DNA from: an uncultured Chloroflexia bacterium
GTDB lineage: Bacteria; Chloroflexota; Anaerolineae; Anaerolineales; Anaerolineaceae
Length of the DNA: 32,000 nt
Reading direction: 5' to 3'
NCBI GenBank assembly: GCA_963704755.1
Contig: OY969938.1
Coordinates: 4,140,001 to 4,172,000, forward strand
The notes beneath the pieces were generated by a model. The model saw only the letters and a list, made by a program, of their open reading frames with translations, had not been told where the DNA came from and made no database searches. Shown one piece after another: positions 12,723-18,299 of the stretch; position 1 is the stretch's first letter; each line of letters begins with the position of its first letter. The translations under genes and the position numbers were made by a program.

Positions 12723-13090
12723 AGCTGTTAGCGGTTAGCTATTGGCAATTAGCCCGTAGGGTGGGTGGAGGGCTCGAAAATAACACAGACAAATCACCGG
12801 TTGGCGTCGTGATCCGGGCTTTGCCCGTAACCCACCGGGGGGTCGGTGCCGGCGACCGAGGTCGCGGCAACAAAAACGCGAAGCCCCACCTGCGTGGGGC
12901 TCAACCCGGCGTGGGCCACTTTTTGTGGCCCGGCTTTCGAAACCAAAGGATGTGTGTTGGGTTACGGGCTGAGCCTGGTAAAACAAAATGCCCTTCTGTG
13001 TGCCGGCGCCAGAATGGAGCCCGCAACCCAACCTACGAGCTAATTGCTAATCGCCAATAGCTAAAAGCTAAAAGCTAACTGCTAACAGCT
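12723..13090. mobile_element. ~370-bp non-coding MITE-like composite bounded by terminal inverted repeats and built from three short repeat modules (X, Y, Z)
   Basis: The left terminus agctgttagcggttagctattggcaattagc (12723-12753) is the imperfect reverse complement of gctaattgctaatcgccaatagcta...gctaactgctaacagct (13039-13090). Module X (about 12756-12836) recurs at about 15060-15138. Module Y (12851-12940) recurs at 14900-14985, with a fragment at 13105-13126. Module Z (12953-13036) belongs to the GTAGGTTGGGTT hairpin family seen at 5849-6030. No transposase is present. Confidence 0.6.
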
Positions 13091-14884: not shown

Positions 14885-14899
14885 CAGTTAGCCGGCGTT

Positions 14900-14985
14900 G
14901 GCGACCGAGGTCGCAGCAACAAGTACTCGAAGCCCCACCTGCGTGGGTCTCAACCCGGCAGGGGGAGCTTTTTGTGGCCAAGCTT
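14900..14985. repeat. Module Y repeat, second copy, direct orientation relative to 12851-12940
   Basis: ggcgaccgaggtcgcAgcaacaa..cgaagccccacctgcgtgggTctcaacccggc...ctttttgtggcc aligns with 12851-12940. It contains two small hairpins (gcgacc/ggtcgc and ccccac/gtgggg). Confidence 0.75.
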
Positions 14986-15059
14986 CTTATAATTCACCAA
15001 ATTTCTCAATGAGCCCTCCACATATATTACATGTACAAAGCTAATTGCTAACATCTCGA

Positions 15060-15138
15060 AGCGTGGATGCAGGGCTCGAAAATAGCGCCGGCATATCACA
15101 AGTTGGAATTACCATCTGGATCTTGGCCGTAACCCACC
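15060..15138. repeat. Module X repeat, second copy (first copy about 12756-12836)
   Basis: Shared blocks gggctcgaaaata, atcac..gttgg and gccgtaacccacc occur in the same order. It is preceded by gctaattgctaac (15040-), which resembles the MITE terminus at 13039. Confidence 0.65.
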
Positions 15139-15276
15139 ATCTGGCGGGTAATCACCCGCATCCCGGTCTTCTTCGATCAGAAAGTAGTGGCGTTTCTAAT
15201 GGAGCGTTGAAAAGCAAGCTCAGTCGGGAGACCATCCCGAACGACAAGCGAGGAGACCACACAAATCAATTTTGAT

Positions 15277-16143
15277 TCATATCGATTTACATAGCTCAGA
15301 ATTAGTTTTTGCTAACCTATTTATCGCCATCAGATAGGTCTCATGTATTAGGTTTGGTTTATCTTTTTTTAAATTTCCGAGAGTAATATAATTATTTCCT
15401 GTAGTCATTTCAAGAGTTCCATCTGAGAGGATTTGCAGAAAATCAAAATATCGATCCTTCAATGACACCATTTTAAATTTTCTATTTGGAGCAGAAAAAA
15501 ATGATCTAATATTATAAGTAGATGAATAGAACAAAGAATCGCTTATTTCAAACAATTCTTTATTGTTTTTCGCCGCAACACCATGATCGCTACGAAATTG
15601 ATAGATTTTCCATTCTGATACCCCAGCATTAATAAGATAAGTTGCAATATTTTTCAAATCACCGTGATTGATTTTAGACACCACCGTAGTAGCTTTCAAA
15701 ATAATACCAGAATCCCGTAAGACCGAAAAAATATTATCCACTTTCTTAAAATGATCCTTTGGCCTTGACATTTGCATATTGATTTCTTCAGTTGAACCAT
15801 CCAAAGGGAGCGAAAGTCTATCTACCTTTGAACTTAATAAAAAAGCCAACCATTCTTTATCGATTAATGAACCATTGGTCATTACTGTTGTAAAAAGTTT
15901 GCTTTTAACTGAATATAAGATCGCTTCAGGAATCCAAGGAACAAGCAAAGGCTCCCCCGTAAATGTGATTCGATTAGCGCCTAATAAAATAAGTTTGTCG
16001 ATTATTTGTTTTGCTTCCTCAAAGGACGTAATATTGTCATCAGTTGAGTAACGATAACAATATTTGCATGCATAGTTGCATTTGCTTGTGACGTACCAAC
16101 AGACGTGGTTAGCGTGTATAGCAGAGGGTAATTGTTCAATCAT
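15277..16143 (-). CDS. Radical SAM enzyme, viperin-like (possible prokaryotic viperin, pVip)
   Basis: 288 aa with about 30-35% GC. CX3CX2C motif in VCWYVTSKCNYACKYCY. By eye it aligns along its length with human viperin as I remember it: FTRQCNYKCGFCFH / EEAK / INFSGGEPF vs ITFTGEPLL / SNGSLI vs TNGSLI / FKINSVIN vs LKATTVVSKIN / RWKVFQ vs EWKIYQ / MKDSYLILDEY vs LKDRYFDFLQI. There are no extra Cys clusters, so no SPASM domain. Confidence 0.8.
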   Translation of the reverse strand: MIEQLPSAIHANHVCWYVTSKCNYACKYCYRYSTDDNITSFEEAKQIIDKLILLGANRITFTGEPLLVPWIPEAILYSVKSKLFTTVMTNGSLIDKEWLAFLLSSKVDRLSLPLDGSTEEINMQMSRPKDHFKKVDNIFSVLRDSGIILKATTVVSKINHGDLKNIATYLINAGVSEWKIYQFRSDHGVAAKNNKELFEISDSLFYSSTYNIRSFFSAPNRKFKMVSLKDRYFDFLQILSDGTLEMTTGNNYITLGNLKKDKPNLIHETYLMAINRLAKTNSELCKSI

Positions 16144-16187
16144 CTTTCATTTCCAAATTTCAGACATTCGCCGATCTTAAAATAAAT

Positions 16188-17579
16188 TTATGGTAAAATA
16201 GGGAATAATATATGATTGGTTATAATTGTAAAAATAGCGCTTGTCAATGCAATAAATATACTAATAAAACTTAAAAGTAGGAGCAACAAATCTATTGTGC
16301 GTTGGTTGTTGCTAATTTTTCTTTGTGCTACCAAAGTAATTTTCTCATCGAGCAAACGCATCTTTTTATAGATGGTTTCTGCTCTATCAGGCAAATTCAT
16401 TTCCTTAGAGAGGTTATCTAAAAATTCCAATGAGAATCCATGAATAATGAAAGCAGTAATATCTCCTGTTTTCTCTAACTCTAGTATAAGGTTTTTCAAT
16501 TCAATAGCGACTGTAATGTCATCATTAAAGGTAGTCGAGGAATATTCTGATACAAAGCGTTCAATAATTGAGTTTAGTGTATGAGTGAATATTAATTGCG
16601 CATTTAATAGTTCGCAAATTATTTTTATGTTATTAACCAATATTGTCAACTCATTTATACGCCAGTAATCGGGTAGCACAATTAGGGCTGCATTGTTGTC
16701 ACAAATAAATAACTCATCGTCTTTATAAGACAACGAGTTACATATCACGCGATCAGAATAATTCTTGTTATACTCTCCAAACCATTTCGCCGAGTTTAAT
16801 ATACCTAATAATTCTTTTTTGGAGCCATCAGTTAGGTCACCACTTTCAAAACAATCCTCAACTTTGCTTCCTTCGAAATCGCTAGGGTTTACGACTAAAA
16901 AGCGGAAAGGCCTTCCATGTGGAATTATTGAATCGCGTGCATTAAGATCACAGGTAGTTAATTTGATACGTTTAAGAAAATAATTGGATTTATTTATGGT
17001 TACAAAGAACTCTGAAATATCAAAAATAAGCTTTCGAAAAAAGCTATCTAAGTATTGTTGAAGTTTTTGCATTATCAAAATGAATTCATTTGCTTCAAAA
17101 ACATTATGGCTATTTTCAGGATCGCGAAAGCTGAAACTAATTGACATAACACCATTACGAAATAAATTTAGACCTATGTTTTCATACTGAAATAGAGGCT
17201 TGCTTGTATCAGGGACGTCAAGACTGATGGTCGATGCATTAATCGTTAATCCTTTATCATAATCGAATCCATTTATTCCTTCTTTCAATTCATACAATGT
17301 AGGCATATATTGGTCGTAAAAAACAGGTGAAAAAATGTTCTTTCCACCGTTTTGAATAACCTTTTCTTTTGTTTTTTGAAGCAAATCTCCACCGGAATTA
17401 GACGTTTTTGGTATAAATGATCCGATCTTTATGCTGTTTCTCGAAAGGCTCCCCCATACATCAAAAAACATTCTGTTGTTAGATCTCATTGATCTAAATT
17501 TGTCCAATGAAGAATCTTTAACGAAGATACCGAAATCAAATGCATACATGAACGTAATGTTGAATTTTGAATATTTCAT
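16188..17579 (-). CDS. 463-aa orphan protein: large soluble N-terminal region, helical stalk, C-terminal hydrophobic anchor
   Basis: Long uninterrupted ORF in about 30% GC DNA, where random stops are frequent. GGGGTGG lies 4-5 nt before the ATG. It ends 44 bp upstream of the radical SAM gene on the same strand. The C-terminus IDLLLLLLSFISIFIALTSAIFTIITNHILFPILP is one long or two short TM segments. I recognise no catalytic motif. Confidence 0.75.
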   Translation of the reverse strand: MKYSKFNITFMYAFDFGIFVKDSSLDKFRSMRSNNRMFFDVWGSLSRNSIKIGSFIPKTSNSGGDLLQKTKEKVIQNGGKNIFSPVFYDQYMPTLYELKEGINGFDYDKGLTINASTISLDVPDTSKPLFQYENIGLNLFRNGVMSISFSFRDPENSHNVFEANEFILIMQKLQQYLDSFFRKLIFDISEFFVTINKSNYFLKRIKLTTCDLNARDSIIPHGRPFRFLVVNPSDFEGSKVEDCFESGDLTDGSKKELLGILNSAKWFGEYNKNYSDRVICNSLSYKDDELFICDNNAALIVLPDYWRINELTILVNNIKIICELLNAQLIFTHTLNSIIERFVSEYSSTTFNDDITVAIELKNLILELEKTGDITAFIIHGFSLEFLDNLSKEMNLPDRAETIYKKMRLLDEKITLVAQRKISNNQRTIDLLLLLLSFISIFIALTSAIFTIITNHILFPILP

Positions 17580-17610
17580 ATTCCACCCCTATTCAAAACT
17601 TGATAAAAAG

Positions 17611-17616
17611 ATTATA
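17611..17616 (-). promoter_or_regulatory. Candidate -10 box for the orphan/radical-SAM operon
   Basis: The complement reads ttgTATAAT, about 32 nt upstream of the ATG at 17579, within a 270-bp AT-rich leader. The -35 is weak (ttctaa). Confidence 0.3.
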
Positions 17617-17864
17617 CAATAAATTTTTGAGTTAGAATTCTTGGAAATTACTTTGAATAAGATTTGGTTGATCCAAATCCAATAGAAGCATATTGTATTA
17701 GATTTTAATGACCCTTCGAAGCTGTCTTTGTTATAGCAAAAATTGGTTTAATGATAAAAAGATTTATCAATGGAAAACATTTGATCTCCTGTCAAGCGGC
17801 TCGCTTTACCTTTTGAGGGCGAAGATTTAGAATAGTTTATCCTTTTTAATCAGTGGAGTTGACT

Positions 17865-18299
17865 ATGGGTAAGGGTTTCGAAAAACACATCATCGAAGCG
17901 GAGAACGCGCCGCAGGCTATTGGACCCTATTCGGTGGGGGTGATGGCCAGGCACTTCTTGTTTACGGCCGGCCAACTTGGCATCGATCCGGCCAGCGGGG
18001 CGATCGTCGAAGGTGGCATCGAGGCGGAAACCCGCCAGGCATTTACCAACCTGAAGGCCGTCCTGGAAGCAGCCGGCACTTCCCTGGCGAATGTGGTCAA
18101 GACGACCGTTTTCTTGCAGGATATCAATGAGTTTGGCAAGATGAACGAGGTCTACGCCGAGTTCATCGAAGGCGATTACCCGGCTCGTTCCGCTTTTCAA
18201 GTAGCGGCGCTGCCTAAGGGTGGCCGGGTCGAGATCGAAGCGGTCGCCCTGGTCCCTTCAACGGACCACCATCACCATCATCATCACGACCACGATTAG
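17865..18299 (+). CDS. ridA: RidA/YjgF/UK114-family reactive-intermediate deaminase with a C-terminal poly-His tail
   Basis: ORF 17853-18299. I prefer the ATG at 17865, with GGAG 8 nt upstream. PYSVGVMARHFLFTAGQLGIDPASG...TTVFLQDINEFGKMNEVYAEF...PARSAFQVAALPKGGRVEIEAVA is classic RidA. The tail is STDHHHHHHHDHD. Confidence 0.85.
   Translation: MGKGFEKHIIEAENAPQAIGPYSVGVMARHFLFTAGQLGIDPASGAIVEGGIEAETRQAFTNLKAVLEAAGTSLANVVKTTVFLQDINEFGKMNEVYAEFIEGDYPARSAFQVAALPKGGRVEIEAVALVPSTDHHHHHHHDHD

What the first reader, a model, noticed from the sequence alone, without database searches (positions are those of the whole stretch)
16188..17579. Orphan 463-aa protein with CorA/RMD1-like topology but none of their motifs
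The first ~420 residues are soluble and Asn/Lys/Ile-rich. A predicted helical stalk follows (…LPDRAETIYKKMRLLDEKITLVAQRKISNNQR). The protein ends in a ~30-residue hydrophobic segment (IDLLLLLLSFISIFIALTSAIFTIITNHILFP). A large cytoplasmic domain, a stalk helix and C-terminal TM segments recall CorA-type channels and DUF155/RMD1 proteins, but I see no GMN motif or other signature. A 1.4 kb open frame in ~30% GC DNA is very unlikely to be chance. It is a plausible pore-forming or membrane-disrupting effector, or a membrane-localised sensor.
Basis: inference. Interest (0 to 1): 0.7.

Follow-up and report, generated by a model that had tools for sequence, protein, structure and literature searches.

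The report
Membrane protein paired with radical-SAM enzyme
This is a real gene for a membrane-anchored protein from an unnamed but conserved family that almost always sits next to a nucleotide-type radical SAM enzyme, and the mobile two-gene cassette looks like an undescribed anti-virus system.

Summary
The 463-aa ORF (16188-17579, minus strand) is real. It lies with a 288-aa radical SAM (rSAM) gene in a sharply bounded 2.6-kb island of 27-37% GC inside a 58% GC genome. It is not an orphan. An exhaustive HMMER search found 66 related clusters, mostly 440-570 aa, aligned end to end. They share the motifs GGKxIWS, LRxFRxGxLS, GILNxAxWY, GYRxDEIYxTD, DYW and HGFTR. Nearly all end in one C-terminal transmembrane (TM) helix, and none has a post-TM GMN motif. 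No Pfam, NCBIfam, PHROG, PADLOC or PDB sequence family covers it.

AlphaFold2 models (pLDDT 82) give an alpha/beta-plus-helical domain and one 66-residue stalk-plus-TM helix. The best PDB fold matches are all CorA, but they are weak (E about 0.03, TM-score 0.2-0.34).

The main result is gene context. In 15 of 18 informative loci the adjacent same-strand gene is an rSAM. It is MoaA-derived in 12 loci and viperin-like in the window and its two closest relatives. One subfamily pairs with a uridine-kinase-like protein instead. Several loci lie beside recombinases, transposases, WYL/NB-ARC genes or a PADLOC defence candidate.

My best reading (about 0.4) is an anti-phage cassette. The rSAM would make a modified nucleotide that controls a CorA-like membrane effector. 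The sensor, maturase-substrate and transport readings are not excluded.

The parts
16188..17579 (-). Gene for the 463-aa tail-anchored membrane protein ('X'), a member of an unnamed conserved family
   Evidence: ORF. Family of 66 clusters. 24-sequence alignment A1 with invariant P93, Y270, H380 and F382, and near-invariant K80, R138, H221, D288, E289 and W306. AF2 model with pLDDT 81.9 and pTM 0.81.
16395..17579 (-). Cytoplasmic alpha/beta-plus-helical domain (residues 1-395) carrying all the conserved motifs (GGKxIWS, LRxFRxGxLS, GILNxAxWY, GYRxDEIYxTD, DYW, HGFTR)
   Evidence: Alignment. Secondary structure. There is no N-terminal hydrophobic segment. K+R is enriched before the TM helix relative to after it across 57 members, 2.5 versus 1.35.
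16299..16394 (-). Stalk part (residues 396-427) of the single long helix that continues into the membrane segment
   Evidence: In the AF2 model H396-461 is one continuous helix with pLDDT 88-94. The same is seen in the C-terminal-half model.
16197..16298 (-). Single C-terminal transmembrane helix (residues about 428-461), with no GMN and no second TM
   Evidence: Hydropathy. Nearly every full-length family member has one C-terminal hydrophobic segment, two may have a second, and none has a post-TM GMN.
15277..16143 (-). Partner gene: 288-aa viperin-like radical SAM enzyme, 44 nt downstream on the same strand
   Evidence: Pfam Radical_SAM E 1.6e-21. PADLOC pVip E 6.8e-30. NCBIfam viperin_w_prok 93.6 bits, below the 180-bit cut-off. 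Orthologues of 41-42% identity sit in the same position in L001 and L014.
16057..16080 (-). CxxxCxxC [4Fe-4S]/SAM motif of the partner (CNYACKYC, residues 22-29)
   Evidence: Motif scan.
17580..17850 (-). AT-rich upstream region of the cassette, with TATAAT (17611-17616) and a Shine-Dalgarno-like AGGGGTGG (17583-17590)
   Evidence: Sequence read directly. The generic promoter scan was not enriched over shuffles, so the promoter is inferred only.
15280..17880 (.). Low-GC island (27-37% GC) holding only the two genes, with sharp edges against 48-63% GC flanks. It is probably a horizontally acquired cassette.
   Evidence: Composition profiles.

Best explanation
The ORF encodes a tail-anchored inner-membrane protein. 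It has a large cytoplasmic domain, a long stalk helix and one TM helix, with a remotely CorA-like fold. It is the constant component of a mobile two-gene cassette. The other gene is always a nucleotide-directed enzyme: a MoaA-derived radical SAM in most lineages, a viperin-like radical SAM in this window, and a uridine-kinase-like protein in one subfamily.

The most likely function is anti-phage or conflict defence. On infection the radical SAM enzyme converts a nucleoside triphosphate into a modified nucleotide. That product binds the conserved Lys/Arg/His/Asp-Glu/aromatic cluster of the cytoplasmic domain. The oligomeric stalk-TM bundle then opens or disrupts the membrane, which collapses ion gradients and aborts the infection. 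This would be analogous to SAM-AMP acting on CRISPR-associated CorA, or to cyclic nucleotides acting on CBASS/Pycsar TM effectors.

Shown here: the gene is real; the family exists; the architecture holds; the rSAM pairing is conserved; the cassette looks horizontally acquired. Inferred: the defence role, ligand gating, oligomerisation and membrane damage.
For: 1. Conserved pairing. 15 of 18 informative loci have an rSAM as the immediate same-strand neighbour, often overlapping by 4-8 nt.
- Window, L001 and L014: viperin-like rSAM downstream.
- L003-L007, L011-L013, L018, L021, L022 and L025: MoaA-like rSAM with CNFxCFFC upstream.
- The pairing holds down to family members at only E 1e-8 to the query.

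2. The partners are of the nucleotide-acting clade. pVip is the best PADLOC hit. Viperin or MoaA is the best NCBIfam hit, always below the equivalog cut-off. One subfamily pairs instead with a PRK/uridine-kinase P-loop protein. L014 has a thymidylate kinase nearby.

3. Mobility and defence context.
- The window cassette is a 2.6-kb island of 27-37% GC in a 58% GC genome.
- L012 sits next to PADLOC candidate PDC-S18 (E 3e-61) and a HerA-like ATPase, with a serine recombinase nearby.
- L008 sits next to a WYL regulator, an NB-ARC-TPR protein and a transposase.
- L005 and L013 have integrase-type genes; only the L005 one was confirmed by Pfam. L018 has an IS66 transposase.
- The Gordonia locus lies inside an IMG/VR provirus call.

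4. Effector-like architecture. There is one continuous 66-residue stalk+TM helix. CorA structures are the only recurring PDB fold match. The conserved charged and aromatic residues all lie in the soluble domain.

5. Precedent. CRISPR-associated CorA binds SAM-AMP and needs its TM domain for immunity (PMC10600005).
Against: - No experiment supports any step.
- The CorA fold match is not statistically significant: no Foldseek hit reaches E<=0.001, and TM-scores are 0.2-0.34.
- Profile-profile tests against E. coli CorA and against the CRISPR CorA1 clade fail.
- The protein has one TM helix and lacks GMN. The TM sequence is not conserved and has few polar residues, about 2.5 per 19-residue core. 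That fits an anchor or non-specific membrane disruption better than a selective channel.
- In the window itself the flanks are housekeeping genes, not a defence island.
- The family is absent from the phage and plasmid collections searched.
- In known signalling systems the signal generator is the conserved part and the effectors vary. Here the membrane protein is constant and the enzyme varies, which fits a 'sensor' role equally well.
- P0069 occurs without any enzyme partner.
Confidence: 0.4

Rival explanations
1. Sensor/regulator model. The membrane protein detects an infection-related membrane or envelope event, or tethers the enzyme at the membrane, and switches on the radical SAM. The radical SAM is the real effector and makes a chain-terminating or otherwise toxic nucleotide, as viperins do.
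For: The window partner's best matches are viperin models, and pVips are effectors in their own right (established knowledge of prokaryotic viperins). The membrane protein is the constant module while the enzyme type is swapped between MoaA-like, viperin-like and kinase, as expected for a conserved sensor with exchangeable effectors. The TM helix is poorly conserved and anchor-like. Tight or overlapping gene junctions suggest a physical complex.
Against: The partners score below the viperin and MoaA equivalog cut-offs, and only the N-terminal rSAM core of the viperin profile is matched (positions 3-207 of 281), so ddhNTP synthesis is not implied. Most MoaA-like partners have lost the auxiliary-cluster cysteines. 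The large, highly conserved cytoplasmic domain with Lys/Arg/His/Asp-Glu motifs looks more like a ligand-binding or catalytic module than a membrane-event sensor, because it has essentially no extracytoplasmic part.
Confidence: 0.25
2. Maturase-substrate model. The radical SAM post-translationally modifies the membrane protein, for example at one of the invariant residues Y270, H380 or F382, to make it active. The precedent is the HXS defence system, in which rSAM enzymes mature the effector HxsA.
For: Strict adjacency and likely translational coupling. Invariant aromatic and His residues in X. A precedent exists for an rSAM-matured anti-phage effector (PMC13128918). Weak HxsC-family hits appear among many others for the MoaA-like partners.
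Against: The partners lack SPASM/twitch or peptide-recognition domains. Their best matches are the nucleotide-acting MoaA and viperin models, not peptide maturases. One subfamily replaces the rSAM with a nucleoside/nucleotide-kinase-like protein, which points to a small-molecule nucleotide.
Confidence: 0.1
3. Housekeeping model. The pair is a divergent cofactor-biosynthesis (MoaA-type) enzyme plus a CorA-like metal or metabolite transporter.
For: MoaA is the best NCBIfam match for most partners at 125-171 bits. CorA is the only recurring fold match. The window flanks are housekeeping genes.
Against: There is no GMN, only one TM helix and no CorA HMM match. MoaA scores are far below the cut-offs. 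The auxiliary-cluster cysteines are lost in 9 of 12 partners and the C-terminal Gly-Gly tail in all. No moaB/C/D/E genes are adjacent in any locus. The family is rare and patchy, with 66 clusters among 1.84 billion representatives. The window copy sits in a foreign-GC island, and other copies sit beside mobile or defence genes.
Confidence: 0.07
4. The ORF is a chance open frame or a decaying pseudogene in AT-rich DNA.
For: None beyond the AT-rich composition.
Against: Chance probability is about 2.5e-16. There are full-length homologues with conserved motifs across phyla and conserved synteny. The AF2 model is confident.
Confidence: 0.01

Closest known systems
CRISPR type III-associated CorA effectors (SAM-AMP-activated; PADLOC PDLC01174)
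   Same: Similar size (about 450-530 aa). A large N-terminal cytoplasmic domain joined by long helices to a C-terminal membrane part. Genetically coupled to an enzyme that makes a SAM- or nucleotide-derived small molecule. Weak PADLOC hits in 2 of 24 members, located at the conserved beta-hairpin. Conserved Arg and acidic-pair motifs in the soluble domain of both (PMC10600005).
   Different: The CRISPR CorA1 clade keeps GF(W/F)GMN and two TM helices, whereas this family has one TM and no GMN. There are no cas10, NrN or SAM-lyase neighbours. Profile-profile comparison is not significant, E 0.19. The partner is a radical SAM enzyme, not a Cas10 cyclase.
Canonical CorA/MIT Mg2+/Co2+ channels (Pfam PF01544; T. 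maritima, E. coli and C. jejuni structures)
   Same: They are the only recurring structural match, covering 160-320 aligned columns. The element order is the same: beta-sheet/helix domain, long helices, and a stalk helix continuous with the first TM.
   Different: E>=0.03 and TM-score 0.2-0.34. There is no Pfam or hhalign signal, no GMN and no second TM. This family has an extra N-terminal region of about 200 residues.
Prokaryotic viperins (pVip), for the partner gene
   Same: pVip is the best PADLOC match, E 6.8e-30, and the best NCBIfam match is viperin_w_prok. Size is about 290 aa. One relative has a nucleotide-kinase neighbour.
   Different: The score of 93.6 bits is below the 180-bit cut-off, and only profile positions 3-207 of 281 are matched. 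The residues before the cluster motif read C-W-Y, where viperins have N-x-H as I recall it (from memory, not tested). pVips are described as single-gene or kinase-linked systems, not as paired with a membrane protein.
MoaA (GTP 3',8-cyclase), for the partner gene in most relatives
   Same: Best NCBIfam hit at 125-171 bits. R17, CxxxCxxC, GGEP, TNG, K160/N162 and R264 are conserved.
   Different: Scores are below the cut-offs of 231-325 bits. The auxiliary-cluster cysteines are lost in 9 of 12 and the C-terminal Gly-Gly in all. N-terminal extensions of 20-90 aa are present. No moa operon is adjacent.
CBASS / Pycsar nucleotide-signal plus TM-effector operons
   Same: A two-gene logic of a nucleotide-transforming enzyme next to a membrane protein, found in mobile or defence contexts.
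   Different: The enzyme is a radical SAM, not a CD-NTase or cyclase. The membrane protein is unrelated in sequence, with no PADLOC hit to those effectors.
DUF155 / RMD1 (Pfam PF02582)
   Different: No Pfam hit at E<=0.1 for any of 24 members. The fold comparison could not be run because no AlphaFold DB library was available.
HXS system (rSAM-matured periplasmic effector)
   Same: An anti-phage system in which rSAM enzymes are genetically coupled to a non-enzymatic effector protein (PMC13128918).
   Different: HXS has four genes, HxsB/C are peptide-modifying rSAMs, and the effector is a secreted His-Xaa-Ser repeat protein. None of these features is present here.

Membership tests
CorA/MIT channel family (PF01544) | G-M-N motif at the end of TM1 | tested here: not met
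   No G[MVI]N follows the hydrophobic segment in the query or in any of about 65 relatives.
CorA/MIT channel family (PF01544) | Two C-terminal TM helices | tested here: not met
   One hydrophobic segment in the query and in nearly all relatives.
CorA/MIT channel family (PF01544) | Match to the family HMM or profile | tested here: not met
   No Pfam hit at E<=0.1 for 24 members. hhalign of A1 against E. coli CorA gives E 0.2.
CorA/MIT channel family (PF01544) | Cytoplasmic alpha/beta domain plus a long stalk helix continuous with the pore helix (fold) | tested here: inconclusive
   The top 6 and top 8 Foldseek PDB hits of two models are all CorA, with probability up to 0.90. However, E is 0.03-0.6 and TM-score 0.2-0.34.
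CorA/MIT channel family (PF01544) | Homopentameric funnel | not testable with these tools
   No multimer prediction was available.
CRISPR-associated CorA (PADLOC PDLC01174 / CorA1 clade) | Match to the family HMM or profile | tested here: inconclusive
   PADLOC E 0.0072 (13.3 bits) over residues 87-158. Two of 24 members hit at E 0.003-0.007. hhalign against a CorA1 alignment rebuilt from an OCR'd supplement gives E 0.19 at the same hairpin.
CRISPR-associated CorA (PADLOC PDLC01174 / CorA1 clade) | Encoded with type III cas genes and an NrN or SAM-AMP lyase | tested here: not met
   No cas or DHH genes in the window or in any related locus.
DUF155 / RMD1 (PF02582) | Match to the Pfam HMM | tested here: not met
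   No hit at E<=0.1 for 24 members.
DUF155 / RMD1 (PF02582) | Shared fold | not testable with these tools
   No solved DUF155 structure appeared among the PDB hits, and no AlphaFold DB library was available.
Viperin / pVip (partner gene 15277-16143) | Score above the curated family cut-off, including the C-terminal substrate-binding extension | tested here: not met
   NF038283 scores 93.6 bits against a 180-bit cut-off, matching profile positions 3-207 of 281. TIGR04278 scores 49 bits against 450. PADLOC pVip E 6.8e-30 shows it is the nearest defence family.
Radical SAM superfamily (partner gene) | CxxxCxxC cluster motif and the Radical_SAM domain | tested here: met
   CNYACKYC at residues 22-29. 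PF04055 at 77.6 bits against a 29.5-bit cut-off.
MoaA GTP 3',8-cyclase (partner genes in relatives) | Score above the cut-off, C-terminal auxiliary [4Fe-4S] cysteines and the Gly-Gly tail | tested here: not met
   125-171 bits against cut-offs of 231-325. The auxiliary cysteines are absent in 9 of 12 and the GG tail is absent in all.
Any system catalogued in PADLOC-DB v2.0.0 | HMM hit of the membrane protein to a catalogued defence or candidate protein | tested here: not met
   Only the weak CorA hit and scattered single hits at E>0.007.
New family defined here (X) | Full-length alignment with the motifs GGK, LRxFRxGxLS, GILNxAxWY, (Y/F)(R/K)xDE, DYW and HGF(T/S), plus one C-terminal TM | tested here: met
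   The query carries GGKNIFS, LNLFRNGVMS, GILNSAKWF, YKDDELF, DYW and HGFS, plus the TM helix.

The most novel reading that the evidence does not exclude
A radical SAM enzyme acts as the signal generator of an immune pathway. On infection it converts an NTP into a radical-derived nucleotide, such as a ddhNTP-like or cyclised purine nucleotide. That nucleotide serves as a second messenger that gates a single-TM, GMN-less, CorA-fold oligomeric membrane effector. This would be a new class of nucleotide immune signal and a new minimal version of the CorA architecture.
Probability: 0.2. Interest if true: 0.9.

Novelty: new variant of a known kind. Interest (0 to 1): 0.66.

Why it matters
If the cassette is a defence system, it adds a third enzymatic route to nucleotide-based immunity: radical SAM chemistry, beside CD-NTase/cyclase and Cas10/TIR chemistry. 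It would also link viperin- and MoaA-type enzymes to a membrane effector for the first time.

It would show that the CorA-like scaffold can work with a single TM helix and no GMN filter. It gives a name and a testable partner to a family of at least 66 protein clusters that no current library annotates.

In practice, annotation pipelines probably label the partner here as 'pVip' or 'radical SAM' and ignore the obligatory neighbour. Recognising the pair changes how such loci should be read.

Tried and rejected
Searches and tests that gave nothing:
- The word-indexed homology search found only the protein itself. The alignment-seeded repeat saturated its candidate cap and returned 3 proteins.
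- Pfam, NCBIfam and PHROGs gave nothing for the query. Pfam gave nothing for 24 family members, and NCBIfam gave nothing for three further members.
- PDB sequence and profile searches gave only noise.
- BFVD viral structures gave no meaningful match, probability <0.1 for nearly all hits.
- hhalign of A1 against E. coli CorA gave E 0.2.
- hhalign of A1 against a CRISPR CorA1 alignment rebuilt from the OCR'd supplement gave E 0.19. The OCR errors weaken this test.
- The test for internal duplication (N-half against C-half) was negative.
- tblastn of three family members against the phage and plasmid collections gave no match.
- IMG/VR scans gave only the Gordonia locus, identical to L007, and nothing for the window subfamily.
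- The exact look-up of the window protein's contig found it not on record.
- There were no tRNA or Rfam features to mark an integration site.
- The promoter scan was not enriched over shuffles.
- Four literature searches for rSAM plus CorA, membrane or MoaA-like defence pairs found no description of this pair. A fifth found the unrelated HXS system.

Readings rejected: chance ORF; canonical CorA transporter; bona fide viperin or MoaA partner; CRISPR accessory gene.
Full report
**The observation.** The window holds an ATG-initiated ORF of 463 codons at 16188..17579 on the minus strand.
- The protein is rich in L, I, S, F, N and K.
- The local DNA is 27-37% GC. At that composition a stop-free run of 463 codons has a chance probability of about 2.5e-16.
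- A purine-rich AGGGGTGG lies 3 nt upstream of the ATG, and a TATAAT hexamer lies 31 nt upstream.
- Hydropathy shows a single hydrophobic stretch, residues about 426-462, and nothing else membrane-like.

**The setting in the window.** The ORF and a 288-aa ORF 44 nt downstream on the same strand (15277..16143) are the only genes in a 2.6-kb block of 27-37% GC. The block has sharp edges against 48-63% GC flanks. The rest of the window encodes cytochrome bd, a Zn-dehydrogenase, a TetR regulator, RidA, two two-component systems, polysaccharide-synthesis enzymes, FemAB-type transferases and a Ser/Thr kinase. There are no cas genes or known defence genes. The pair therefore looks like a small, horizontally acquired cassette inserted among housekeeping genes.

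**The protein is not an orphan.**
- The word-indexed search returned only the protein itself.
- The exhaustive HMMER scan of 1.84 billion cluster representatives returned 66 proteins at E<=1e-3, 21 of them at E<=1e-10. Most are 440-570 aa and align from about residue 5 to about residue 450.
- A 24-sequence alignment (A1) has invariant P93, Y270, H380 and F382. Near-invariant are K80, F87, R138, G143, H221, G259, L261, D288, E289, W306 and L416.
- These residues lie in the motifs GGKxIWS, LRxFRxGxLS, GILNxAxWYxxY, GYRxDEIYxTD, DYW and HGFTRxFL.
- Nearly every full-length member ends in one hydrophobic helix, and none has a G-M-N after it.
- K+R is enriched before the helix relative to after it, and the tail beyond the helix is short. 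This places the large domain in the cytoplasm.
- The family has no Pfam, NCBIfam, PHROG or PDB sequence match.
- The only library signal is a weak PADLOC 'CorA-like' hit in 2 of 24 members, E 0.003-0.007.

**The fold.**
- An AlphaFold2 model built on A1 is confident: mean pLDDT 81.9, pTM 0.81.
- It shows mixed beta-strands and helices through residue about 300, then helices 309-345, 351-372 and 381-393, and one continuous helix 396-461.
- Against the PDB, the six best Foldseek hits are all CorA. E is 0.03-0.1, probability reaches 0.84, and 260-320 columns align, but TM-scores are only 0.2-0.34.
- A second, independent model of residues 205-463 (pLDDT 82.2) again gives CorA as its eight best hits, from T. 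maritima, E. coli and C. jejuni. Best E is 0.035 with probability 0.90.
- Viral structures give nothing.
- Profile-profile comparisons with E. coli CorA and with an alignment of the CRISPR CorA1 clade are not significant. The CorA1 alignment was rebuilt from the OCR'd supplement of PMC10600005.
- That clade keeps GF(W/F)GMN and two TM helices.
- My conclusion is that a CorA-like architecture is a reasonable description. Membership of the CorA family is not supported, because the GMN, two-TM and HMM criteria were all tested and failed.

**The decisive evidence is gene context.** I could inspect 18 independent loci that carry a family member with enough flanking DNA.

| Loci | Adjacent gene |
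|---|---|
| Window, L001, L014 (the closest relatives, 28-33% identical) | 282-291-aa radical SAM directly downstream, 41-51% identical among themselves |
| L003 Kribbella, L004 Solirubrobacterales, L005 Kineosporia, L006 Acidimicrobiia, L007 Gordonia, and metagenome contigs L011, L012, L013, L018, L021, L022, L025 | 366-436-aa radical SAM (CNFxCFFC) directly upstream on the same strand, with gaps of a few to 47 nt or overlaps of 4-8 nt |
| L019 | 486-aa protein with a kinase-like N-terminal region and a PRK/uridine-kinase P-loop domain; no rSAM |
| L008 | No enzyme partner |
| L009 | No enzyme partner; X is split into two ORFs |

The pairing holds even for members that match the query only at E 1e-8 to 1e-7. 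In total, 15 of 18 loci have an adjacent rSAM.

**What the partners are.**
- The window rSAM has the CNYACKYC cluster motif.
- Its best PADLOC match is pVip at E 6.8e-30. Its best NCBIfam match is viperin_w_prok, at 93.6 bits against a 180-bit cut-off. Only the rSAM core of that profile is matched, positions 3-207 of 281.
- The upstream-type partners match MoaA best, at 125-171 bits against cut-offs of 231-325.
- Aligned with E. coli MoaA, they keep R17, the cluster motif, GGEP, TNG, K160/N162 and R264. Nine of 12 have lost the auxiliary-cluster cysteines and all lack the Gly-Gly tail. They carry a conserved EG(P/A)YALRLSA motif instead.
- Both partner types therefore belong to the nucleotide-triphosphate-acting branch of the superfamily, but neither is an orthologue of the characterised enzyme.
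- The third partner type is also a nucleoside/nucleotide-kinase-like protein, and L014 has a thymidylate kinase nearby. Everything points to a nucleotide-derived small molecule as the currency of the system.

**Mobility and neighbourhood.**
- L012 carries the pair next to PADLOC candidate PDC-S18 (E 3e-61) and a HerA/mad8-like ATPase. HTH/ImmA-like genes, a trypsin-like protease and a serine recombinase are also there.
- L008 lies between a WYL regulator and an NB-ARC-TPR protein, with a transposase nearby.
- L005 and L013 have integrase-type genes; only the L005 one was confirmed by Pfam. L018 has an IS66 transposase.
- L022 has a GHKL-ATPase gene upstream.
- The Gordonia locus lies at the end of an IMG/VR provirus call.
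- The family is rare, and it is absent from the phage and plasmid collections searched.

**Mechanism.** I commit to the following as most likely, at about 0.4. The cassette is a conflict or anti-phage system in which the radical SAM enzyme turns an NTP into a modified nucleotide. The cytoplasmic domain of the membrane protein binds that product. Its conserved K/R/H/D-E/aromatic residues all lie in the soluble part. The protein then transmits the signal through the stalk helix to an oligomeric TM bundle that leaks ions or disrupts the membrane.

The closest working analogue is CRISPR-associated CorA. It binds SAM-AMP and needs its TM domain for immunity (PMC10600005).
- Shown: the gene, the family, the architecture, the pairing, and an island that looks horizontally acquired.
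- Inferred: the defence role, ligand binding, oligomerisation and membrane damage.

**Rival mechanisms.**
- Sensor model, 0.25. The membrane protein is a sensor or tether that controls a viperin-like effector enzyme. This is favoured by the constant membrane protein with swapped enzymes, and by the poorly conserved, apolar TM helix.
- Maturase model, 0.1. The rSAM modifies the membrane protein, as HxsB/C mature HxsA (PMC13128918).
- Housekeeping model, 0.07. A cofactor or transport pair, disfavoured by the lost MoaA features, the absent moa genes, rarity and the mobile context.
- Chance ORF. Excluded.

**Comparison with the known, and novelty.**
- The protein works like, but is not a member of, the CorA family or the CRISPR-CorA family.
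- The partner resembles viperin and MoaA but is not a member of either.
- The two-gene logic of a nucleotide enzyme plus a TM protein is that of CBASS, Pycsar and type III-CorA.
- PADLOC-DB v2 (2023) has no model for the membrane protein. Five full-text literature searches found no description of an rSAM paired with such a protein.
- I rate it a new variant of a known kind.
- The most novel reading not excluded is that a radical SAM enzyme is an immune second-messenger synthase. I give that a probability of about 0.2.

**Limits.**
- All functional statements are inferences from sequence, models and context.
- The Foldseek evidence is below conventional significance.
- The CorA1 comparison used OCR-damaged sequences.
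- The locus sample of 18 is small and partly chosen by me.
- No AlphaFold DB search, multimer modelling or HHpred run was available.
- The source organism of the window was not identified.

Noticed in passing
window 12723-13090 and 14893-15140: A MITE-like repeat. The first copy has 31-53-nt inverted-repeat ends. A second, partial copy is 71-84% identical and shares the exact 19-mer GAAGCCCCACCTGCGTGGG. The two copies bracket the Zn-dehydrogenase/TetR segment, which has intermediate GC (40-52%), and the second copy abuts the low-GC cassette. No Rfam match.
   Followed up: partly
window 17853-18299 (+): The RidA/L-PSP family protein ends in a natural His-rich tail, HHHHHHHDHD.
   Followed up: no
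L003-L007, L011-L013, L018, L021, L022, L025 (upstream genes): The MoaA-derived radical SAM partners keep MoaA's nucleotide-contact residues. Nine of 12 have lost the auxiliary [4Fe-4S] cysteines, and all carry a conserved EG(P/A)YALRLSA motif and N-terminal extensions. This is an uncharacterised MoaA offshoot in its own right.
   Followed up: partly
L014 2801-5501 (-): Next to the closest full-length relative of the cassette lie three genes. One is a 277-aa protein with an EndoIII-like C-terminal Cys cluster by eye (no Pfam hit). The others are a thymidylate kinase and a nucleoside 2-deoxyribosyltransferase-methyltransferase fusion. Together they form a nucleotide or DNA-modification cluster whose relation to the cassette is unknown.
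   Followed up: partly
L012 1425-3487 (-) and 8658-11302 (+): PADLOC candidate PDC-S18 (E 3e-61) and a HerA/mad8-like ATPase lie directly beside the rSAM-X pair. An HTH/ImmA-like pair, a trypsin-like protease (similar to the protease domain of RT-Protease_XI) and a serine recombinase are also present. This looks like a small mobile defence island.
   Followed up: partly
L019 5001-7867 (+): In the P0020/P0029/P0058 subfamily the rSAM is replaced. The overlapping downstream gene encodes a 486-aa protein whose N-terminal 280 aa look protein-kinase- or Kdo-kinase-like by eye. Its C-terminal part is a PRK/uridine-kinase P-loop domain.
   Followed up: partly
L013 327-1094 (+) and the P0015 contig (no DNA held): An endonuclease/exonuclease/phosphatase (EEP)-type gene lies next to the pair on the P0015 contig (Pfam Exo_endo_phos). 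In L013 the neighbouring 255-aa ORF looks EEP-like by eye only. This may be a third component in some lineages.
   Followed up: no
L009 1098-2451 (+): The family member here is split into overlapping 361-aa and 103-aa ORFs that both match the family profile. This is a likely frameshift, either a pseudogene or an assembly error.
   Followed up: no
L007 = L017 (Gordonia oryzae NZ_RKMH01000002.1, 301373-314488): The Gordonia copy of the cassette is 100% identical to the end of an 81.9-kb IMG/VR provirus prediction. In that genome it may therefore be prophage-borne.
   Followed up: partly
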